Source of the DNA: Minisyncoccota bacterium
Lineage (GTDB): Bacteria; Patescibacteriota; Minisyncoccia; Phycocordibacterales; UBA9973
NCBI GenBank assembly: GCA_942491275.1
Contig: CALNZI010000006.1
Coordinates: 9,899 to 73,898 of the forward strand
Length of the DNA stretch: 64,000 bases
Direction of reading: 5' to 3'
Shown here: in pieces, positions 743 through 64,000 of the stretch
Position numbering within the stretch: the first letter of the stretch is position 1
Layout of the letters: every line of letters begins with the position of its first letter
Program-made: the position numbers and the translations under genes
Notes under the pieces: generated by a model
Seen by the model: only the letters and a program-made list of their open reading frames with translations
Database searches by the model: none
What the model was told of the DNA's origin: nothing

Positions 743-1660
743 ATGAGTTGGTTTTTTATTGCCCTGGGGGCTCCATTTTTATGGGCATTGGTTAATATTT
801 CTGATCAATACCTTGTTAAAAAATATTCAATTGGTGAAAAAGGGTCGGGAGGCCTAGTTCTTTTTTCTAGTCTTATTGGAATCTTTGTCGCGATTTTTAT
901 TGGGATATTTACTATGGGTATTTTTGAAATACCCATTATGGATAAGTTTCTTCTTATTTTAACTGGAGGTTTGGTTATTCTGTGGGTTATTATATATCTG
1001 TATACTATTGAAATTGAAGATATTTCTTTTATAGCTCCTTGGTTTTCTGTTGTTCCGATTTTTGGATATATTTTAGGATATGTTTTTCTAGGAGAAACAT
1101 TAAACAATCAACAGTTAATTGGTTCAGGAATTGTTTTATTGGGAGTATTTTTGATATCCATTGATTTTTCTTTGGAAGAAAAATATAAATTTAAATGGAA
1201 ACCAGCACTTTATATGATAATTACATCTTTTATTATTGCTGTAATTGGGATTATTTTTAAATACGTAACAATAGTTGATAGGTTTTGGATTTCTTCCTTT
1301 TGGGAATATTTTGGGCTTGGGGTGTTTGGTATTTTAATTTACTTTTTTATTCCAAAGTATCGTCGAGAATTTTTAAATATGAACAGACTGGGTGGAATAA
1401 AGATATTTATATTGAATATCTTTAGTGAGTTTCTAACTATAATTGGTAGTCTTTTGACTAATTACGCTGTTTTATTGGCTCCAGTGGCCTTGGTTTATCT
1501 GGTGGGTAGTTTTCAGCCAGCAATTGTTCTTTTGTTTGTTATTTTAGGAACAAAATTTTTCCCAAAAATCATTACAGAAAAAATCCATCATCAAATTATG
1601 ATACCAAAAATTATTGCGATCTTAATTATACTAATTGGTAGTTTTATTTTGTTTATTTAA
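743..1660 (+). CDS. EamA/DMT-family membrane transporter
   Basis: 305 aa, about 10 hydrophobic spans arranged as two similar halves, typical of drug/metabolite transporters. The 3' end overlaps the convergent gene by 8 nt. Confidence 0.6.
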   Translation: MSWFFIALGAPFLWALVNISDQYLVKKYSIGEKGSGGLVLFSSLIGIFVAIFIGIFTMGIFEIPIMDKFLLILTGGLVILWVIIYLYTIEIEDISFIAPWFSVVPIFGYILGYVFLGETLNNQQLIGSGIVLLGVFLISIDFSLEEKYKFKWKPALYMIITSFIIAVIGIIFKYVTIVDRFWISSFWEYFGLGVFGILIYFFIPKYRREFLNMNRLGGIKIFILNIFSEFLTIIGSLLTNYAVLLAPVALVYLVGSFQPAIVLLFVILGTKFFPKIITEKIHHQIMIPKIIAILIILIGSFILFI

Positions 1661-2954
1661 GGTAGCCCCATTTTTTGAGCTTTGAATGATCTTCTTCAAT
1701 AAATTTTCTTCCAATATCATTTCGATAAAGCATTTTAGGTACAATCACTTTTTTAATAAGAGAATAAGTTTTTTCTTGGGCTTCTTTGACGGTTTTTCCC
1801 ATTTGAGTTGCGTAAAGAACATAACCGGCATCATCTGATAAATAGAAATCTTTTGAAGATATTGTTTTCTTTGACAAACCGTCTAATCTTATGTGCTTAA
1901 ATTCCTCTTTACTCATATTGTTAAAAAATACATTTACACCGACAAGATCTTCATTTTTTGTATTATCTCCGAATGGAAAGGGAGGAGTTGCTACTAAAAC
2001 AATAATCCCGTAACCTTTTTTCCATTTTAAGTTGTAATTTTCTCCCTTGGCTACAGAATAAAGAAATTCAGCCCAGGGTGATTCATGGATTTCTGCTTGT
2101 AGGTGTATCGCAGGAGAACCTAATCTAGCTGTTGCTTCTAGGCAAAAAATTCCATTTTTGTTTACTATTGTATTTATTTCAAAATCTCCTCTAAAATTTA
2201 CTTTTTGTAAGAATGGTTTTAGTTTCGCGATAGTTTCTTGGTAGAGTTTATTATTTTCATCACTGTCGTACCACATTAATGTTCCCATTTCAGAAGTTGT
2301 TGGACCGAGATCTCCTGGGAAGAACTTTTTATGTTCAACATTATATTCAATTGGTCCAATCCAATTTTCCCCGTTAAAATATCTACCTATTCCAATTTCA
2401 ATTCCTTCAATTTTTTCATGTAATGTTATTTTTCTATCTTTAAAATTATTTTTTTTAATATAACTTTCAAGAACAGAAATAACATCTTTTCCATTTTTTA
2501 AACAGCCGACATAATTGATTGTTTTATCTGAGTCTTTGTTTTGTTTTACAACCCAAGCTTTTGGATGCTTTTTAACATAGTTAATAGCTTTTTTAATACT
2601 GTCAAAATCTTTTAGTTTTTTTGTTTTAAGTCCGTATTCTTTAAAAATTTCTTGGCCGTATTCTCTATTAGTTTCTAATAATTCTCCTAAACGAGAACCT
2701 CCAAAAACGATATACCCATCTTTTCTTAATTGGTCTTGTTTTTTCCCATGACCAACATCATCAAAAATAATTAGGCCTTTTTTACCAACCCAATTTAATT
2801 CAGCTTCCCAATCTTCAGTTTTATTTACAATATTATCAAAAGTTTTCTTAACTTTTTTATTTCCTATATAAAGTTTAACATCATGACCTTCATTTTTAAG
2901 AATATAAGCAAGGTTTCCTGCAACAAAATCATTTGATACAAATAAAATTTTCAT
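1653..2954 (-). CDS. purD: PurD-like ATP-grasp enzyme (phosphoribosylamine-glycine ligase family, divergent)
   Basis: 433 aa. Blocks are alignable by eye to PurD: FPGDLGPTTSEMG, LEATARLGSP, GYVLYATQMGKTVKEAQEKTY, YRNDIG. No other purine-pathway gene lies nearby. Confidence 0.6.
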   Translation of the reverse strand: MKILFVSNDFVAGNLAYILKNEGHDVKLYIGNKKVKKTFDNIVNKTEDWEAELNWVGKKGLIIFDDVGHGKKQDQLRKDGYIVFGGSRLGELLETNREYGQEIFKEYGLKTKKLKDFDSIKKAINYVKKHPKAWVVKQNKDSDKTINYVGCLKNGKDVISVLESYIKKNNFKDRKITLHEKIEGIEIGIGRYFNGENWIGPIEYNVEHKKFFPGDLGPTTSEMGTLMWYDSDENNKLYQETIAKLKPFLQKVNFRGDFEINTIVNKNGIFCLEATARLGSPAIHLQAEIHESPWAEFLYSVAKGENYNLKWKKGYGIIVLVATPPFPFGDNTKNEDLVGVNVFFNNMSKEEFKHIRLDGLSKKTISSKDFYLSDDAGYVLYATQMGKTVKEAQEKTYSLIKKVIVPKMLYRNDIGRKFIEEDHSKLKKWGYLK

Positions 2955-59318: not shown

Positions 59319-60284
59319 TTATAAAATCAAGTTGAAAAGAAAACCTGTAAACATAATTCCAATAGCGACAATTCCAATAAAAATAAGGATTAATTTTGTT
59401 TTCATTACTTTCTTTAAAATCATAAACTCCGGAAGAGACAGAGCTGTCACTGACATCATAAATGATAGAGTCGTTCCCATGGCCACCCCCTTCTCAGTTA
59501 AAGCTGAAACAAGTGGAATTACTCCAGCCGCATTTGAATATAAAGGAATTCCAACTAAAACAGCCAGGGGTACAGCATACCATTTGTCACTTCCAGCATA
59601 TTGAGCCAGAAAATCAGCGGGGACATATCCATGAATCCAAGCACCTATTCCAATCCCAATCAAAACATAAATCCAAACTTTATTTAATATATTTAATGTA
59701 TAATTTTTAGCATAATTGAATCTTTCTTTTTTAGACATCTGAGGTAAGATTACATCTCCGTCTATTCTATTATCAAAAACAAAAGATTCCACTAAACTTT
59801 CCATCTTCATTTTTCCAATAATTATCCCAGATAGAACTGAAATAATAATTCCGCTAATGACATAAATAAGAGCAATCTTCCAACCAAACATCCCCAAAAG
59901 TAACACTAGGGCTACTTCATTTATCATAGGTGAAGCAATAAGAAAAGAAAAAGTTGTTCCCAGAGGAACTCCCGCTTGAACAAAACCTAAAAATAAAGGG
60001 ATGGCCGAGCAAGAACAAAATGGGGTAATTATTCCCAAAAGTGAAGCAAATAAATTCCCCACATATTCGTTTTTGCGAGATAATATAATTCGTATTTTTT
60101 CAGGAGGTAAATATGAACGAATAATTGAAACAATAAAAATAATAACAGTTAGTAGTATTAAAATTTTTAAAGTATCATAAATAAAAAAGTTTACAGCTCC
60201 AGCTCTAAGAGAGTCTGGAGTAATTCGAAAAACAGAATATGTTAGCCAGTCGGACAATAATTGTATGGGGTAAAAAAGATTCAT
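59319..60284 (-). CDS. UPF0718/YraQ-type permease
   Basis: Polytopic protein with the PFCSCSAIPLF motif typical of this permease family. Confidence 0.65.
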   Translation of the reverse strand: MNLFYPIQLLSDWLTYSVFRITPDSLRAGAVNFFIYDTLKILILLTVIIFIVSIIRSYLPPEKIRIILSRKNEYVGNLFASLLGIITPFCSCSAIPLFLGFVQAGVPLGTTFSFLIASPMINEVALVLLLGMFGWKIALIYVISGIIISVLSGIIIGKMKMESLVESFVFDNRIDGDVILPQMSKKERFNYAKNYTLNILNKVWIYVLIGIGIGAWIHGYVPADFLAQYAGSDKWYAVPLAVLVGIPLYSNAAGVIPLVSALTEKGVAMGTTLSFMMSVTALSLPEFMILKKVMKTKLILIFIGIVAIGIMFTGFLFNLIL

Positions 60285-60401: not shown

Positions 60402-60462
60402 GGCCCTATCGTCCCTGCCAGCCCTCGCGTACTCGAGAGCAGGCTGGTAAAGGTTAGGACAT
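60402..60462 (+). pseudogene. 5' fragment of tRNA-Glu (nt 1 to about 27) carrying a 34-nt GC-rich hairpin inserted in the D-loop
   Basis: GGCCCTATCGTC[CCTGCCAGCCCTCGCGTACTCGAGAGCAGGCTGG]TAAAGGTTAGGACAT versus the gene GGCCCTATCGTCTAACGGTTAGGACAT. Similarity ends where the anticodon stem would start. Confidence 0.75.
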
Positions 60463-60486
60463 GTATAATTAAATAGTCTAAGTTTG

Positions 60487-60558
60487 GCCCTATCGTCTAA
60501 CGGTTAGGACATCGCCTTCTCAAGGCGGTAATCCGGGTTCGATTCCCGGTAGGGTCAC
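60487..60558 (+). tRNA. tRNA-Glu (anticodon CUC), CCA not encoded
   Basis: GGCCCTATCGTCTAACGGTTAGGACATCGCCTTCTCAAGGCGGTAATCCGGGTTCGATTCCCGGTAGGGTCA. Manual cloverleaf with anticodon loop TTCTCAA. Confidence 0.9.
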
Positions 60559-60562
60559 AAAT

Positions 60563-60591
60563 TGACACATAAAGTAAACAATGTTATTATT
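60563..60591 (+). promoter_or_regulatory. Near-consensus promoter immediately after tRNA-Glu
   Basis: TTGACA-17 nt-TATTAT with the TG extension. Same layout as 28566-28594, which follows the orphan tRNA fragment. Confidence 0.6.
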
Positions 60592-60633
60592 TATATAATT
60601 AACGTTTATTTATGTACTTAAAAATATTAAATA

Positions 60634-61248
60634 GTGGAAACAAAAAATTATAATTATTTCTATGATGAAGATGGTACAAAGATAGTAATCAATGGATTAA
60701 AAGATTATCGAGAATTACCACAGATGTCTGCTGTATTGATTTTAAAAAACAATCAATACATAAGAGAAATGAAAAGACAAAAGTTGTCTTGTATTTCTAG
60801 CGATGTTATTTCCCCTGATTATAATGCAAGTGGTGCAATGTATATACTTTTTTCATATATACTTCATCGATTTGATTTTTATTTATCAGCTGAGAATTGT
60901 TTGGAAAATGAAGTATCTAAATACTTACAAATTTGTGAGGACTTGATACCTGAACTTTTGTATGAAGCAAAATACTACAATTATTCTCCGCAAGGAAAAC
61001 CGCCAAGGCTTTGTTCATATTTAGAAAATTATAATGAACTTCCAGAAAGAATAAGATTCTTATTTTTTCTATCGTTAAACCATGTTATCGGTTTACATCG
61101 CGGACTAAGTAGTTGTTTCTATTATGTTGAAAAATATTTTCAACTAGCAAAACACGAAGGAAGAGCTTGTAAAAATGAATTCGGAGGATCTGCCAATATT
61201 CTTCATAAATTATTTGATACATTTTCTTTTCCACAACAAAATTCATAA
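60634..61248 (+). CDS. Hypothetical protein (204 aa), Tyr/Cys-rich, cassette 1
   Basis: Long ORF with no family recognised. The start is uncertain (GTG 60634, with no in-frame ATG until codon 31). A terminator lies at 61262-61290. Confidence 0.45.
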   Translation: METKNYNYFYDEDGTKIVINGLKDYRELPQMSAVLILKNNQYIREMKRQKLSCISSDVISPDYNASGAMYILFSYILHRFDFYLSAENCLENEVSKYLQICEDLIPELLYEAKYYNYSPQGKPPRLCSYLENYNELPERIRFLFFLSLNHVIGLHRGLSSCFYYVEKYFQLAKHEGRACKNEFGGSANILHKLFDTFSFPQQNS

Positions 61249-61300
61249 GAATTATTAAGGCCTGCTTATTTAAGTGGGCTTTTTTATGCAACAAATTCCT

Positions 61301-61355
61301 TAAATCCCCTTATATTCTCTATAATCGAGTTCCAATAAATTACCCGTAGGGTCAC
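61301..61355 (+). repeat. R1: decayed copy of the tRNA-Glu 3' portion
   Basis: taaatccccttatattctctataatcgagttccaataaattaCCCGTAGGGTCAC. The end matches the tRNA 3' end CCCGGTAGGGTCAC. There are 4 mismatches to R2 over 55 nt. Confidence 0.75.
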
Positions 61356-61465
61356 AGCTTATTCTCATCCTTAACTAATAAGGGTTTTTTGTTAATTTTA
61401 ATATAAAATCTAATATGATATACTTAATTTAGAAATAATTTTTTTAAATAAATAATTTAATTATT

Positions 61466-61738
61466 ATGGAAACTAACGACAAATCTTTCAGAGTTTCTAG
61501 AGTTCTTTTATTTTATTGGGTAATTAGAGACTGGTGGTCTTCTAAAAAAATGTTTGTTCGTAGCCGTTTAAGATTAATTTGGGCACGTATCTATATACGT
61601 AAGGATGAATTCCATAAATCCTTAGATATGGATTTTGAGGCTCTTATGACTATGAAGGGAAAACAAAAAGAAAAATATCTTAAAGACCTATGCGACAGAA
61701 GAGAAATTGCTCACAGAAAAGAAATGGGTGATATGTAA
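61466..61738 (+). CDS. Hypothetical basic protein (90 aa), cassette 2
   Basis: ORF with the terminator AATAGCCAATAA..TTATTGGCTATT downstream. No family recognised. Confidence 0.4.
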   Translation: METNDKSFRVSRVLLFYWVIRDWWSSKKMFVRSRLRLIWARIYIRKDEFHKSLDMDFEALMTMKGKQKEKYLKDLCDRREIAHRKEMGDM

Positions 61739-61807
61739 GTATCATTTAAATAGAAACAAAAAATAGCCAATAATAATTTTATTGGCTATTTTCTTTACAT
61801 AGAATAC

Positions 61808-61862
61808 TAAATCCCCTTATACTATCTACAATAGAGTTCCAATAAATTACCCGTAGGGTCAC
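61808..61862 (+). repeat. R2: second copy of the R repeat
   Basis: Same 55-mer as R1, here followed by CCA-TG. Confidence 0.75.
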
Positions 61863-61943
61863 CATGTCGTGCTAGCACGAGAAGGTTATAAAATCAGTGT
61901 TTTAAAAGATTGAAATTTCGCACCCTTCTAGGAATCGAACTAT
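61863..61943 (+). repeat. S1: 81-nt direct repeat, left flank of the purM-like gene
   Basis: Starts with the palindrome TCGTGCTAGCACGA. Ends with GCACCCTTCTAGGAATCGAAC, which on the minus strand reads GTTCGATTCCTAGAAGGGTGC, a tRNA T-loop/acceptor-like end. There are 5 mismatches to S2. Confidence 0.8.
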
Positions 61944-62024
61944 TTTATATATAGACAGACTATGGATTTTGTGTTAATATTTATACAAAATTCGTAATAC
62001 TATTCACAAACAAATAATCTTAAA

Positions 62025-63236
62025 ATGGAAAAAGGTGATACTAACTATCAAAAAAGAGGCGTATCTTCTGGTAAAGAAGATGTACATAATGCCATTCAAA
62101 ATTTGAGTAAAGGAATATTTTCCAATTCATTTTGTAAAATTTTACCAGATTTTTTAAGTAACGACCCAGAATATTGTATTATTATGCACGCAGACGGTGC
62201 TGGAACCAAAGGCTCATTGGCCTATCTCTACTGGAAAGAAACTGGTGATATTTCAGTTTTCAAAGGAATATCGCAAGATTCAATAGTAATGAACATTGAC
62301 GACATCATGTGTATTGGTGCAACAAATGGAACAATTTTAATTTCTTCAACAATCGGAAGAAACAAACATCTCATTACTGGTAAAGTAATTGCTGAATTAG
62401 TAAACGGAGCTGAAGAATTTTACAAAATGCTTAGAAAATTTGATATTAGCATTGAAAGCTCTGGTGGTGAAACTGCTGATGTGGGTGATATTGTGAGAAC
62501 CTTAGTTGTAGACAATACAATTGTTTGTCGAGCTAAGAGATCCGATATTATTAATATCGACATTCAACCTGGTGATTATGTTGTAGGTCTATCCTCTTTT
62601 GGAAAAGCTTCCTACGAAGACACCTATAATTCAGGTATGGGAAGTAACGGACTTACCTCAAGCAGACACGATATTTTTGGTGGAGATTATATATTTAAAT
62701 ATCCTGAAACTTTTGATCCAATTCTACTAGAAAAATGCCATGAACTTGTTTATCGAGGAAAAAGAAAAGTTACAGATATTGTCGATGTTAATTCTAAGGA
62801 TAAATCATTTAATAACTTAGACTTCGGTAAATTTGTTCTTTCTCCTACGAGAACTTATGCTCCTATAGTGAAACAAATTCTCGAAAAAATTCCAAGAAAA
62901 AAAATTCATGGAATTATTCACAATTCAGGAGGAGGTCAGACAAAAGTTCTAAATTTTATTGATGGACTTCATGTCACAAAAGATTTAACAGGATTAGTTC
63001 CTCCCCTATTTAAGATTATTCAGAAAGAAACAAACACTAAATCCAATGAAATGTATCAAACATTTAATATGGGTTACAGGATGGAGTTTTATTGTGATAA
63101 AGAAACCGCAAATGAAATAATCGAAATAGCTAAGAGTTTTAATGTAAAAGGTGAATTAATGGGAAAAGTTATCCGTTCATCAAAAACAAAAGTCACCATA
63201 AAAAACGGCGACAACACTGAAACTTATGAAAAATAA
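62025..63236 (+). CDS. purM: PurM-like protein (AIR synthase family), cassette 3
   Basis: YQKRGVSSGKEDV, ADGAGTKGSLA, MNIDDIMCIGA, SSGGETADVG, LSPTRTYAPIV, HNSGGGQTK, MYQTFNMGYRM align block by block with PurM. A terminator lies at 63237-63275. Confidence 0.8.
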   Translation: MEKGDTNYQKRGVSSGKEDVHNAIQNLSKGIFSNSFCKILPDFLSNDPEYCIIMHADGAGTKGSLAYLYWKETGDISVFKGISQDSIVMNIDDIMCIGATNGTILISSTIGRNKHLITGKVIAELVNGAEEFYKMLRKFDISIESSGGETADVGDIVRTLVVDNTIVCRAKRSDIINIDIQPGDYVVGLSSFGKASYEDTYNSGMGSNGLTSSRHDIFGGDYIFKYPETFDPILLEKCHELVYRGKRKVTDIVDVNSKDKSFNNLDFGKFVLSPTRTYAPIVKQILEKIPRKKIHGIIHNSGGGQTKVLNFIDGLHVTKDLTGLVPPLFKIIQKETNTKSNEMYQTFNMGYRMEFYCDKETANEIIEIAKSFNVKGELMGKVIRSSKTKVTIKNGDNTETYEK

Positions 63237-63295
63237 CCTGCTTAACAGATCAACCTGTTTAGGCAGGTTTTTCTTTTTTATTAACCACCTTTCTA

Positions 63296-63335
63296 GTGCT
63301 AGCACGAGAAGTATTGGATTCCCGGAGAGGTCAAC
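63296..63335 (+). repeat. R3: extra half-palindrome plus tRNA 3'-end-like fragment
   Basis: GTGCTAGCACGAGAAG followed by TATTGGATTCCCGGAGAGGTCAAC, then CCA-TG and S2. Confidence 0.6.
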
Positions 63336-63416
63336 CATGTCGTGCTAGCACGAGAAGCTGATAAAATCAGTGTTTTAAAAAATTAAAATTTTGCACCCTT
63401 CTAGGAATCGAACTAT
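63336..63416 (+). repeat. S2: 81-nt direct repeat, right flank of the purM-like gene
   Basis: Aligns full-length with S1. The first 22 nt and last 24 nt are identical. Confidence 0.8.
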
Positions 63417-63525
63417 AAAAATTATTAGAAATACCATTAAGATGTATTATTACAAAAAAAATAATGCATACAAATTTAATCTGTATGCATTATATTATTG
63501 AGTAATTTACTTTTTACTTTTTACT

Positions 63526-64000
63526 TTAATTAAAATAAATTTTACTAATCTTCTCCAGAATTTTTTCTCCTGGGTCTCCTGGAATAAAAATACTCTCATC
63601 TACTTTATAGATAAATGATAAATTCTTTATCATTTTTTCATGATCATATTTCTCTCCTTGATTTCGAAAAAATGTCAAGAAAGCAGAACTAATAGCTCGG
63701 TCTCTAGGAATATATCTCCGAATATCAACAAGATATTCTATATACCGAGAGCTCCTTTCTTTATCTCTTATTTCAAATTTCCCACTCTGAAAGGCTTTAG
63801 CTGCGCTAGTTCTTGAAAGACCTGTAAAAATTTCAAACAACAATGTAATTGGAAATTTTGTTTTCTCAAGAGCTTTCTTTAGAAGAGTATAGTCTTCTAT
63901 CTCAAGAGAATGCCATGCATTCAAAAAATTCTTTGTTACCCACCTTCTTGAAGTTTTATTCAAATCAGCGATTAGTCTGACAATTTCCGTCTTACTACTG
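63526..64000 (-). CDS. Hypothetical protein, N-terminus beyond window edge
   Basis: The frame stays open to position 64000 (…SSKTEIVRLIADLNKTSRRW…), and the track TTG start at 63963 is internal. No integrase or other known motif is recognised in the visible 158 aa. Confidence 0.45.
   Translation of the reverse strand, partial: SSKTEIVRLIADLNKTSRRWVTKNFLNAWHSLEIEDYTLLKKALEKTKFPITLLFEIFTGLSRTSAAKAFQSGKFEIRDKERSSRYIEYLVDIRRYIPRDRAISSAFLTFFRNQGEKYDHEKMIKNLSFIYKVDESIFIPGDPGEKILEKISKIYFN

What the first reader, a model, noticed from the sequence alone, without database searches (positions are those of the whole stretch)
60402..63416. tRNA-Glu-anchored array of three promoter-ORF-terminator cassettes, each bounded by a decayed copy of the tRNA 3' portion, with no recombinase in view
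Seen in sequence: the intact tRNA-Glu(CUC) is at 60487-60558. Its 3' end (…CCCGGTAGGGTCA) recurs three times downstream in the same orientation. R1 (61301-61355) and R2 (61808-61862) are 55-mers ending CCCGTAGGGTCAC. Their upstream part still aligns to the tRNA from about nt 24 (aaATCcCCTT…TAATC). R3 (63312-63335) reads GGATTCCCGGAGAGGTCAAC. Each interval holds one self-contained unit: a 204-aa Tyr/Cys-rich ORF, a 90-aa basic ORF, and a purM-like gene. Established knowledge: direct repeats of a tRNA 3' segment are the attL/attR signature of site-specific integration into tRNA genes, and tandem accretion gives nested attR relics. Oddities argue against a plain fossil island. First, R1 and R2 share derived changes (the ccaataaatta replacement of the T-loop), so they were copied from each other rather than decaying independently. 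Second, R2 and R3 are followed by CCA (GGGTCA-CCA, GGTCAA-CCA), whereas the chromosomal tRNA-Glu gene does not encode CCA (GGGTCA-CAA). Third, the cassettes are far smaller than usual integrative elements and none encodes a recombinase. Inference: this is either a miniature cassette-capture locus served in trans, or the proximal end of a larger element extending past 64000.
Basis: partly seen in the sequence, partly recalled or inferred. Interest (0 to 1): 0.7.

Follow-up and report, generated by a model that had tools for sequence, protein, structure and literature searches.

The report
Serine-recombinase cassette island at tRNA-Glu
Downstream of a tRNA-Glu gene in a tiny-genome (CPR/Patescibacteria) bacterium lies a string of small gene cassettes, each ending in a conserved 55-base docking site left by small circular elements that insert there with a large serine recombinase. 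It is a real and widespread gene-exchange hotspot of a known general kind, built with an unusual enzyme.

Summary
tRNA-Glu(CUC) lies at 60486-60558. R1 and R2 are 55-nt direct repeats, 51/55 identical. R3 is a weaker but non-random copy. No recombinase is found anywhere in the 64-kb window.

R is not a decaying tRNA relic and not a dispersed repeat. It is a sharply bounded site: about 80% identity among copies, against about 35% in the flanks. In at least 20 other Patescibacteria loci it occurs in same-orientation arrays of up to 6 copies. Whenever a tRNA-Glu is in view, the array lies downstream of it. Each interval holds one or two unrelated genes.

A clade of about 510-aa large serine recombinases (LSRs) abuts tRNA-Glu in relatives. 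Their free 4-5 kb circular forms carry an R-type arm next to the LSR gene, which is attP. R differs from the tRNA end by exactly the 5-bp motif shift that separates serine-integrase attP from attB half-sites.

So R1 and R2 are attR-type sites (P arms). R3 has tRNA (B-type) spacing. The window holds the recombinase-less residue of serial integration and cassette turnover. The "CCA" belongs to the att core or flank.

This is a new variant of tRNA-anchored accretion islands (tycheposon-like, SCC-like). How single-gene units are cut out remains inferred.

The parts
60403..60466 (+). Partial duplicate of the tRNA-Glu 5' part (nt 1-12 and 17-27), interrupted by a 37-nt GC-rich hairpin
   Evidence: Read directly from the sequence and repeat D16. 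Absent upstream of tRNA-Glu in six related loci. Origin unexplained.
60486..60558 (+). tRNA-Glu(CUC). Its last ~21 nt (60538-60558, GTTCGATTCCCGGTAGGGTCAC) are the B-type half-site (attB side).
   Evidence: Motif-to-end distance is 22 nt in 6/7 tRNA-Glu genes. LSR genes abut this end in L104, L026, L118 and L120.
60559..61300 (+). Cassette 1: promoter-like site 60562-60590, 204-aa ORF 60634-61248, hairpin plus T-run around 61258-61290
   Evidence: A 70%-identical homologue sits in another array (L081), again followed by an R. No Pfam, NCBIfam, PHROG, PDB or fold match.
61301..61355 (+). R1: attR-type site (P arm of the LSR attP plus a conserved 5' extension)
   Evidence: Nearest relative is the R in L099, 53/55.
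61356..61807 (+). Cassette 2: 90-aa orphan ORF 61466-61738 and a palindromic bidirectional terminator 61758-61794
   Evidence: No homologue other than itself.
61808..61862 (+). R2: attR-type site (P arm)
   Evidence: Nearest relative is the single R in L116, 54/55.
61861..61943 (+). S1: hairpin (TCGTGCTAGCACGA), an AT-rich spacer/terminator region, then GCACCCTTCTAGGAATCGAAC, a diverged inverted copy of the tRNA-Glu 3' end
   Evidence: The same element follows R upstream of the purM-like gene in L107 and L112 and follows tRNA-Glu directly in L115. No Rfam match. Fold not significant.
62025..63236 (+). Divergent PurM-family (AIR-synthase-related) gene, with terminator at 63252-63269
   Evidence: Pfam AIRS and AIRS_C. 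TIGR00878 scores 102 bits against a cutoff of 236. 79-82% aa identity to the gene after the last R in L107 and L112.
63290..63311 (+). Extra copy of the S hairpin (GTGCTAGCACGAGAAG) on the left of R3
   Evidence: Together with S2 it gives a strong fold around R3 (z = -3.3).
63312..63335 (+). R3: degenerate copy of the tRNA-Glu 3' end with tRNA (B-type) spacing, lacking the 5-bp insert and the R 5' half
   Evidence: 16/20 identity, 0.01 expected by chance. Alignment. Not present after the purM-like gene in L107.
63334..63416 (+). S2: second copy of S, 94% identical to S1
63526..63963 (-). 145-aa ORF of unknown function, convergent, with terminator at 63461-63493. The last feature before the window ends.
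   Evidence: No family match. No homologue in the fetched loci.

Best explanation
The locus is a tRNA-Glu-anchored accretion island built by small integrative elements that use a large serine recombinase (LSR).

Shown in relatives:
- These elements are 4-9 kb circles carrying an LSR, often a rolling-circle Rep, and a few cargo genes.
- Their attP consists of a P arm of R type (GGTTCCAATT-N10-TAGGGTCAC) joined to the 3' end of the LSR gene (P').
- They integrate at the extreme 3' end of tRNA-Glu, with the crossover within GGG-TC-AC.
- This places the LSR gene against the tRNA and the P arm at the far end as attR (R).
- New elements enter at the tRNA and push older material distally.
- Cassette content differs between genomes that share identical flanks, and the break falls at the 3' end of R.

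Inferred:
- The window's R1 and R2 are such attR sites.
- The two small cassettes are cargo left behind after the recombinase/replication module was lost or excised. Possible routes are excision with alternative R sites, deletion, or homologous exchange between R copies.
- S and the purM-like gene are the older flank.
- R3-S2 is a decayed attB-like (tRNA-end plus S) copy.
- Any recombination now needs an LSR supplied from outside the window.
For: (1) R is a conserved, sharply bounded site. Among 34 distinct copies, mean pairwise identity is 0.79-0.80 inside R and 0.30-0.39 in the flanks.

(2) R forms same-strand arrays of up to 6 copies in L099-L117, found by one metagenome scan. Wherever a tRNA-Glu is in view, it lies on the 5' side of the R array on the same strand: window, L101-L104, L115, L116, L120 and L026.

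(3) LSR genes abut tRNA-Glu convergently, with an R at the far end of the element, in L104, L026 and the closed genome RAAC4_OD1_1 (L120).

(4) Of 120 representatives of this LSR clade, 64 end in a peptide encoded by the complement of a tRNA T-loop. 34 of these have the VTx tail that corresponds to TAGGGTCAC.

(5) Free circular forms exist. L124 is 4154 bp with a 141-bp terminal repeat, and L125/L126 are circular permutations of it. L122/L123 are about 5.05 kb and carry LSR plus Rep. In both, the LSR 3' end abuts a P-type arm...GGTTCCAATTCGCACTAATGTGGGTCAC|CAAATTAGA.

(6) Geometry. The GTTC.A.T motif starts 27 nt from the end of GGGTCAC in 34/38 R copies and 22 nt in 6/7 tRNA-Glu genes. With the centre at TC this places the motif at bp 16-24 in R and bp 11-19 in the tRNA. 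These are the positions reported for the zinc-ribbon-domain motif in serine-integrase attP and attB (PMC3783163).

(7) Crossover position. The L081 and L026 elements lose homology exactly at GGG|TCAC.

(8) Tandem accretion is seen directly in L118: tRNA-Glu | LSR2 element | R-like | LSR1 element.

(9) Cassette turnover at R. L104 and L110 are 100% identical over 1277 bp up to the end of R and unrelated beyond. L107 behaves likewise, as do L106/L115 and window/L081.

(10) 52 cassette ORFs fall into 46 clusters: HAD, MBL, HD, Maf, serine hydrolases and unknowns.
Against: - No LSR, LSR fragment or Rep is present in the window. The link to the enzyme therefore rests on relatives.
- No R lies between the LSR module and the cargo in the elements examined. 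The route that yields single-gene [cargo-R] units with a precise left junction is not demonstrated.
- The right half-sites (P', B') show no clear symmetry with the left ones, and what follows the tRNA or R is very variable.
- The 5' half of R is as conserved as the P arm, yet it lies outside a normal LSR half-site and is missing from the circular attP of L122 and L124.
- L081's LSR is not next to a tRNA.
- L108/L113 have a lone R more than 11 kb from any tRNA-Glu.
Confidence: 0.78

Rival explanations
1. An integron-like platform. Each [gene-R] unit is an independently mobile cassette, excised as a small circle and re-inserted at the tRNA-Glu end or at another R by a recombinase acting in trans. 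R plays the part of attC and the tRNA end the part of attI. The enzyme could still be the LSR.
For: - One or two genes per unit, constant R orientation and very diverse cargo.
- Breakpoints fall at the 3' end of R.
- The same left-end classes follow both the tRNA and R.
- 13/52 junctions carry a terminator palindrome whose far arm is an inverted copy of the R/tRNA end, against 3.7% by chance. This is reminiscent of a foldable site.
- L118 shows that a site with a foreign right arm can still be targeted.
Against: - No tyrosine recombinase or IntI is present in the window or among the cassette ORFs scanned in related arrays.
- R alone has no significant fold (z = -0.26) and no attC-type symmetry.
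- Cassettes lie on either strand, and at least some have their own promoters.
- No circular single-cassette contig was found. The circles recovered all carry the LSR.
Confidence: 0.3
2. A plain fossil. R1-R3 are dead scars of old integrations that now do nothing. Cassette differences between genomes arise only by ordinary deletion and by homologous recombination or transformation, using the conserved tRNA and R copies as portable homology.
For: - No recombinase in 64 kb.
- R copies of 55 nt at 80-98% identity, together with a highly conserved tRNA, are adequate substrates for homologous exchange.
- Breakpoints at the edges of R fit this equally well.
- High R conservation could simply reflect fast island turnover, with young scars deposited by active elements whose attP is under selection.
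Against: - R1 and R2 are 53-54/55 identical to copies in unrelated samples, so at least these are not old decayed scars.
- The 5-bp spacing is retained in 34/38 copies.
- Active circular elements and tandem insertions exist in the same clade.
Confidence: 0.35
3. R is a dispersed miniature repeat (MITE/REP-like), or an RNA-level signal such as a tRNA-like processing or termination element, unrelated to integration.
For: - R is short, conserved and intergenic.
- Many copies are followed by terminator hairpins.
- The S and G elements nearby do carry structure.
Against: - R is not dispersed. The window holds only two copies, both here.
- Where a tRNA-Glu is in view, R lies downstream of it on the same strand.
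- R orientation does not follow that of the adjacent ORFs.
- R has no significant fold and no Rfam match.
- R is physically joined to the LSR gene in the circular elements.
Confidence: 0.04

Closest known systems
Tycheposon-type tRNA-anchored genomic islands of Prochlorococcus (Hackl et al., bioRxiv 10.1101/2020.12.28.424599; read)
   Same: - Small elements with an integrase module, a replication module and cargo integrate at the 3' side of a specific tRNA.
- New arrivals push older ones distally.
- Degenerate remains and att repeats accumulate, building a hypervariable island in a streamlined genome.
- Most islands hold no intact element.
   Different: - There, 910 of 937 elements use tyrosine recombinases and the repeats are partial tRNA copies.
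- Here the enzyme is an LSR of a Patescibacteria clade, and the repeat is the element's P arm: tRNA-like but with a 5-bp insert and its own consensus.
- The target is tRNA-Glu.
- Units are as small as 0.5 kb with a single gene.
Serine-integrase attP/attB systems (A118/LI, Bxb1, phiC31; Rutherford et al. 2013, PMC3783163)
   Same: - The protein has Resolvase, Recombinase and Zn-ribbon domains.
- Sites are short.
- attP and attB half-sites share motifs, but the outer motif sits 5 bp further from the centre in attP (bp 16-24 against 11-19).
- attL and attR are formed on integration.
   Different: - Known phage LSRs mostly target protein-coding genes (my own knowledge).
- This clade targets tRNA 3' ends, and its ORF runs into the complement of the tRNA.
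- The right-hand arm of the target appears very permissive.
- No RDF has been identified.
SCC composite islands at rlmH/orfX in staphylococci, driven by CcrAB/CcrC LSRs (my own knowledge, not tested here)
   Same: - LSR-driven insertion at the 3' end of one conserved gene.
- Direct-repeat integration site sequences at every boundary.
- Recombinase-less pseudo-SCC units sit in tandem and can be moved in trans, or together with a neighbour, by using alternative repeats.
   Different: - Different target, host and LSR clade.
- SCC units are 3-60 kb, not single genes.
- SCC repeats are about 15-18 bp copies of the target rather than a distinct P arm.
Integrons and CALINs (clusters of attC sites lacking an integrase) (my own knowledge)
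   Same: - The overall look: an array of mostly single-gene cassettes, each ending in a same-orientation site.
- Diverse cargo.
- Arrays often occur without a recombinase nearby.
   Different: - No IntI tyrosine recombinase.
- R is not an attC-type imperfect palindrome.
- Cassettes lie on both strands with their own promoters.
- The entry point is a tRNA gene, not attI.
ICE/CIME accretion-mobilisation at tRNA or gene 3' ends, e.g. Streptococcus thermophilus ICESt1/CIME (my own knowledge)
   Same: Decayed att-flanked units lacking recombination genes persist next to the target site. They can be co-excised with an incoming element through alternative att sites.
   Different: - Those systems use tyrosine integrases.
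- They are conjugative elements.
- Their units are much larger.

Membership tests
Large-serine-recombinase (serine integrase) attachment-site system | An LSR gene (Resolvase + Recombinase + Zn-ribbon domains) belonging to the element and lying at one att junction | tested here: not met
   In the window itself there is none. In relatives it is met: L104, L026, L081, L118 and L120.
Large-serine-recombinase (serine integrase) attachment-site system | attP and attB half-sites share motifs, with the outer (zinc-ribbon-domain) motif 5 bp further from the centre in attP | tested here: met
   27 nt in 34/38 R copies against 22 nt in 6/7 tRNA-Glu genes. These match the published positions, bp 16-24 against 11-19. 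That this motif is the ZD motif is an inference.
Large-serine-recombinase (serine integrase) attachment-site system | A free circular form carrying attP, i.e. the P arm joined to P' next to the integrase gene | tested here: met
   L124 (141-bp terminal repeat, with permuted L125/L126) and L122/L123. An R-type arm abuts the LSR 3' end. These are relatives, not the window's own element.
Large-serine-recombinase (serine integrase) attachment-site system | Crossover at a 2-bp centre shared by both partner sites | tested here: inconclusive
   Mapped only to within GGG|TCAC, from the L081/L026 homology break and the cassette breakpoints.
Large-serine-recombinase (serine integrase) attachment-site system | A recombination directionality factor controlling excision | not tested
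   Small Resolvase-domain ORFs of 120-130 aa lie next to the LSR in L104, L118 and L120. Their role is unknown.
Integron | IntI-type tyrosine recombinase next to attI and a common promoter | tested here: not met
   No tyrosine recombinase in the window or among the cassette ORFs scanned in related arrays.
Integron | attC sites: imperfect palindromes that fold as single strands (R''/L''-L'/R') | tested here: not met
   R alone has no significant fold (z = -0.26). Only some junctions have a palindrome, and it spans R and the next cassette.
Integron | Mostly promoterless, co-oriented cassettes | tested here: not met
   ORFs lie on either strand. 10/52 junctions start with a TTGACA promoter.
Tycheposon-type tRNA island | Island adjacent to a full-length tRNA, with att repeats related to the tRNA 3' part scattered distally | tested here: met
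Tycheposon-type tRNA island | Elements made of an integration module, a replication module and cargo | tested here: met
   LSR plus REP_ORF2-G2P Rep plus cargo in L081, L026, L118 and L122/L123. None is in the window.
Tycheposon-type tRNA island | Integrase of the tycheposon tyrosine-recombinase clade | tested here: not met
   The enzyme is an LSR. The paper reports that the 27 of 937 elements without a tyrosine recombinase carry an LSR.
SCC-like composite island | Ccr-clade LSR and attB in rlmH | tested here: not met
   The target is tRNA-Glu. The relation of this LSR clade to Ccr was not tested.
Dispersed MITE/REP repeat | Many copies scattered through the genome, in both orientations | tested here: not met
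   Two copies in 64 kb, both here. All copies within a locus lie on one strand.

The most novel reading that the evidence does not exclude
The arrays could be a working cassette-exchange platform rather than a graveyard. In this reading a clade of tRNA-3'-end-targeting LSRs, carried on 4-9 kb circular Rep plasmids, needs only the tRNA-side (B) and R-side (P) arms. It could therefore use any R as an alternative excision point and any tRNA-proximal junction as a target. Single-gene cassettes would then be picked up, dropped and shuffled between Patescibacteria genomes, making a serine-recombinase analogue of the integron.

The covarying G RNA might be part of the system. It mimics the acceptor/T-stem end of tRNA-Glu and sits at many junctions, so it could act as a decoy or secondary site, or as a regulator.
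Probability: 0.3. Interest if true: 0.8.

Novelty: new variant of a known kind. Interest (0 to 1): 0.6.

Why it matters
Patescibacteria (CPR) have tiny genomes, and little is known about how they exchange genes. This locus type points to a common, regular route: small circular LSR/Rep elements docking at tRNA-Glu and leaving behind single-gene units. The cargo includes many nucleotide house-cleaning enzymes, hydrolases, an ars-type permease module and restriction-modification systems.

It also defines a large LSR clade with natural tRNA-end targets and an apparently permissive second arm. That may interest people who engineer serine integrases.

R gives a simple sequence marker (an HMM or pattern) for finding these flexible regions in metagenome-assembled genomes.

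The G element is an uncatalogued structured RNA with clear covariation.

Tried and rejected
- **Source contig beyond 64000.** Exact look-ups of the purM-like and 204-aa proteins found no record. The cluster look-up gave only the contig length, 156,027 bp.
- **Synteny through the adjacent ArsP_1 permease.** The one genome-contig scan returned 80 loci at 71-82% identity from many CPR classes, but no sibling genome. Only L026, L034 and L006 held a tRNA-Glu match.
- **Viral contigs.** The R pattern and two LSR queries found nothing.
- **Rfam.** Nothing for R, S or G.
- **Folding of R, S and R+S.** Not significant, except for the region around R3 flanked by two hairpin copies.
- **R as minus-strand coding sequence.** I considered this because the frame is open in several copies. 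I rejected it because the resemblance follows from DNA identity with the tRNA.
- **Minus-strand tRNA as a second anchor.** I considered whether the inverted tRNA-like end of S marks such a tRNA. No tRNA with that T-arm exists in any fetched sequence.
- **Weak LSR N-terminus-like hits at 63787-63849 (+).** These turned out to be a short stop-interrupted frame antisense to the 145-aa ORF.
- **The 204-aa protein.** The AlphaFold model is a helical bundle (pLDDT 81) with no PDB fold match at E <= 0.001.
- **Literature.** Searches combining Patescibacteria/CPR with cassettes, islands or serine recombinases found nothing specific.

Full report
**What is in the window.** The window is about 32% GC. 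Its neighbours identify it as a Patescibacteria (Paceibacteria/Nomurabacteria-like) genome.

- ARAGORN and Rfam place tRNA-Glu(CUC) at 60486-60558.
- Downstream on the same strand lie R1 (61301-61355) and R2 (61808-61862). They are 55-mers, 51/55 identical, and their 29-nt 3' part is unique to these two places in 64 kb.
- R3 (63314-63333) matches the last 20 nt of the tRNA at 16/20. A match that good is expected 0.01 times per window.
- R2 and R3 are each followed by an 83-nt repeat, S (61861-61943 and 63334-63416).
- The intervals hold a 204-aa ORF with a strong promoter-like site, a 90-aa ORF that has no homologue anywhere, and a divergent PurM-family gene.
- I scanned 54 of the 57 ORFs of at least 100 aa in the window. 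All are housekeeping or unknown, and none is a recombinase or transposase.

**R is a family, and it is tied to tRNA-Glu.** A 70%-identical homologue of the 204-aa protein led to locus L081. There it sits in an array of four R-like repeats, each separating one small ORF. A pattern built from six copies then found 19 metagenome contigs. A profile search showed R in arrays of up to six copies, all on one strand within a locus, 0.5-1.3 kb apart, with one or two ORFs per interval on either strand.

Wherever a tRNA-Glu is in view, it lies at the 5' side of the R array on the same strand. This holds for the window, L101-L104, L115 and L116, and later also for L026 and L120.

Among 34 distinct copies, mean pairwise identity is 0.79-0.80 inside R and 0.30-0.39 in the 60 nt on either side. 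R ends exactly at ...TAGGGTCAC, the last nine bases of the tRNA.

R1 and R2 are each closer to a copy in another sample than to each other (53/55 to L099, 54/55 to L116, 51/55 to each other). So R is neither a dispersed repeat nor a set of independently decaying tRNA scars. R1 and R2 were also not copied from one another in place.

**The enzyme.** In L104 and L026 a ~510-aa protein with Resolvase, Recombinase and Zn-ribbon domains lies convergently against the 3' end of tRNA-Glu. The far end of that 6-9 kb element is the first R.

The closed genome RAAC4_OD1_1 shows the full layout:
- tRNA-Glu
- an 8-kb element with the LSR and a restriction-modification system
- R
- a structured element G
- an ArsR-thioredoxin-ArsP_1 cassette
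- R
- core genes

A profile of three such LSRs finds 317 relatives at E < 1e-30. Of the 120 representatives listed, 64 end in a peptide encoded by the complement of a tRNA T-loop (G[IVLF]EP). 34 of these carry the VTx tail that corresponds to TAGGGTCAC. Abutting a tRNA end is thus a property of the clade. A minority end instead in ...NWN..., which is the complement of R.

**The free form, tandem accretion and the crossover.** Following the ...NWN... group gave circular contigs.
- L124 is 4154 bp with a 141-bp terminal repeat. L125 and L126 are circular permutations of it.
- L122 and L123 are permutations of a circle of about 5.05 kb carrying the LSR and a rolling-circle Rep.
- In both circles the LSR 3' end abuts an R-type arm...GGTTCCAATTCGCACTAATGTGGGTCAC|CAAATTAGA....

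That junction is attP, and R is its P arm.

L118 shows two LSR elements in tandem behind one tRNA-Glu, with a P-P' junction between them. This is direct evidence for accretion. It also shows that a target whose right arm is foreign is tolerated.

The L081 and L026 elements lose homology exactly at GGG|TCAC. This places the crossover at the very end of the tRNA.

**Site geometry.** Serine-integrase attP and attB half-sites share motifs, but the zinc-ribbon-domain motif lies 5 bp closer to the centre in attB: bp 11-19 against 16-24 (Rutherford et al. 2013, PMC3783163).

Here the block GTTC.A.T starts 27 nt from the end of GGGTCAC in 34/38 R copies and 22 nt in 6/7 tRNA-Glu genes. With the centre at the TC of GGG-TC-AC, it occupies bp 16-24 in R and bp 11-19 in the tRNA. 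The circular attP arms have the R spacing.

R is therefore a P-type arm and the tRNA end a B-type arm. R3, which has the tRNA spacing and lacks the R 5' half, is a B-type copy. That this block is the ZD motif is my inference.

**Turnover.**
- L104 and L110 are 100% identical over 1277 bp up to the end of an R and unrelated after it. L107 shares the same left side at 94% and continues differently again.
- L106 and L115 share one cassette but have different neighbours.
- The 204-aa cassette follows the tRNA in the window. In L081 it follows the tRNA-like 3' end of G.
- 52 cassette ORFs fall into 46 clusters. The annotated ones are HAD, metallo-beta-lactamase-fold, HD, Maf, serine hydrolases, a methyltransferase and membrane proteins.

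**Reading of the window.** R1 and R2 are attR-type sites. The two small cassettes are cargo left at the tRNA-proximal end.

R-S-purM is conserved in L107 and L112 (79-82% aa identity), and S follows tRNA-Glu directly in L115. S and the purM-like gene are therefore best read as the older flank rather than a captured cassette.

The CCA after R2 and R3 is the start of S. GGGTCAC|CA also occurs in circular attP and in several tRNA-Glu genes, so it says nothing about an RNA intermediate.

R3-S2, flanked by two copies of GTGCTAGCACGAGAAG, is absent after the purM-like gene in L107 and remains unexplained.

**What is not shown.**
- The window has no LSR, LSR fragment or Rep.
- I could not obtain the rest of the 156-kb contig.
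- The step that produces single-gene [cargo-R] units with a precise left junction is inferred. Three routes remain open: excision with alternative R sites, plain deletion, and homologous exchange between R copies or the tRNA.
- The right half-sites are poorly defined.
- The conserved 5' half of R lies outside a normal half-site and is absent from the circular attP of L122 and L124.

**Comparison and verdict.** In mechanism and outcome the closest described system is the tycheposon-type tRNA island of Prochlorococcus. SCC composite islands are the closest LSR-driven analogue (my own knowledge). It looks like an integron or CALIN but fails every integron membership test.

The differences from known cases are:
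- the LSR clade and its tRNA-end target
- a repeat that is the element's P arm rather than a copy of the target
- the very small unit size
- the host lineage

I file it as a new variant of a known kind, with interest 0.6. There is a 0.3 chance that it is an actively used serine-recombinase cassette platform.

Noticed in passing
L081 8810-8945. Also L103, L109, L104 (two copies), L100, L101, L110, L111, L120, L046 5638-5769 and L011 11135-11234. Not in the window.: G element, a structured motif of about 136 nt (short form) or 165 nt (long form). It lies just after R or tRNA-Glu plus a terminator hairpin. 17 of 32 predicted pairs show compensatory changes, and G.U pairs occur only on the + strand. 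Its 5' end is an inverted copy of the tRNA-Glu 3' end and its 3' end a direct copy. L011 has a covarying closing stem. No Rfam family matches.
   Followed up: partly
window 60403-60466: Copy of tRNA-Glu nt 1-12 and 17-27, split by a 37-nt GC-rich hairpin, lying 20 nt upstream of the intact gene. Absent from six related loci. Origin unknown.
   Followed up: partly
window 59319-60284 (-); L120 1744-2712: The ArsP_1 permease just upstream of the tRNA is about 71-82% identical across many CPR classes. In RAAC4_OD1_1 it sits with ArsR and thioredoxin as a cassette between two R repeats. It therefore looks like travelling cargo.
   Followed up: partly
LSR proteins P0008-P0127; L104, L026, L124: LSR ORFs of this clade seem to lack a stop codon of their own. 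They read into the complement of the tRNA (...VTLPGIEPGLPA) when integrated, and into the complement of R (...NWNQ...) in the circular form. The C-terminal tail therefore changes with integration state.
   Followed up: partly
window 61920-61940 and 63393-63413; L107, L112, L115: The right end of S, GCACCCTTCTAGGAATCGAAC, is an inverted, diverged copy of the tRNA-Glu 3' end. It is identical in the window, L107 and L112 and differs by one inserted base in L115, while the middle of S diverges.
   Followed up: partly
52 R/tRNA junctions in the window and related loci: 13/52 junctions have a terminator whose stem is extended by an inverted copy of GGGTCAC 34-50 nt downstream, against 3.7% by chance. 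10/52 start with a TTGACA promoter within 6 nt. Another class carries an inverted 'mini-R' (GACCCAAGGGGAT).
   Followed up: partly
window 61466-61738: The 90-aa ORF of cassette 2 has no homologue other than itself among 5.8 billion clustered proteins. It may not be a gene.
   Followed up: yes
L104 3434-3796; L118 7169-7561; L120 9527-9898: Small ORFs of 120-130 aa with a Resolvase domain lie next to the LSR in three elements. They are candidate regulators or directionality factors.
   Followed up: no
L081 5992-7240: A 297-aa reverse transcriptase (RVT_1) with a GC-rich, apparently structured upstream region (retron-like) lies next to the first R of that array. NOV_C and OGFr_N proteins lie beside it.
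   Followed up: no
window 1653-2954 and 62025-63236: The window holds a GARS (purD-like) gene and a divergent PurM-family gene that scores below the NCBIfam cutoff. These are partial purine-pathway genes in a CPR genome.
   Followed up: no
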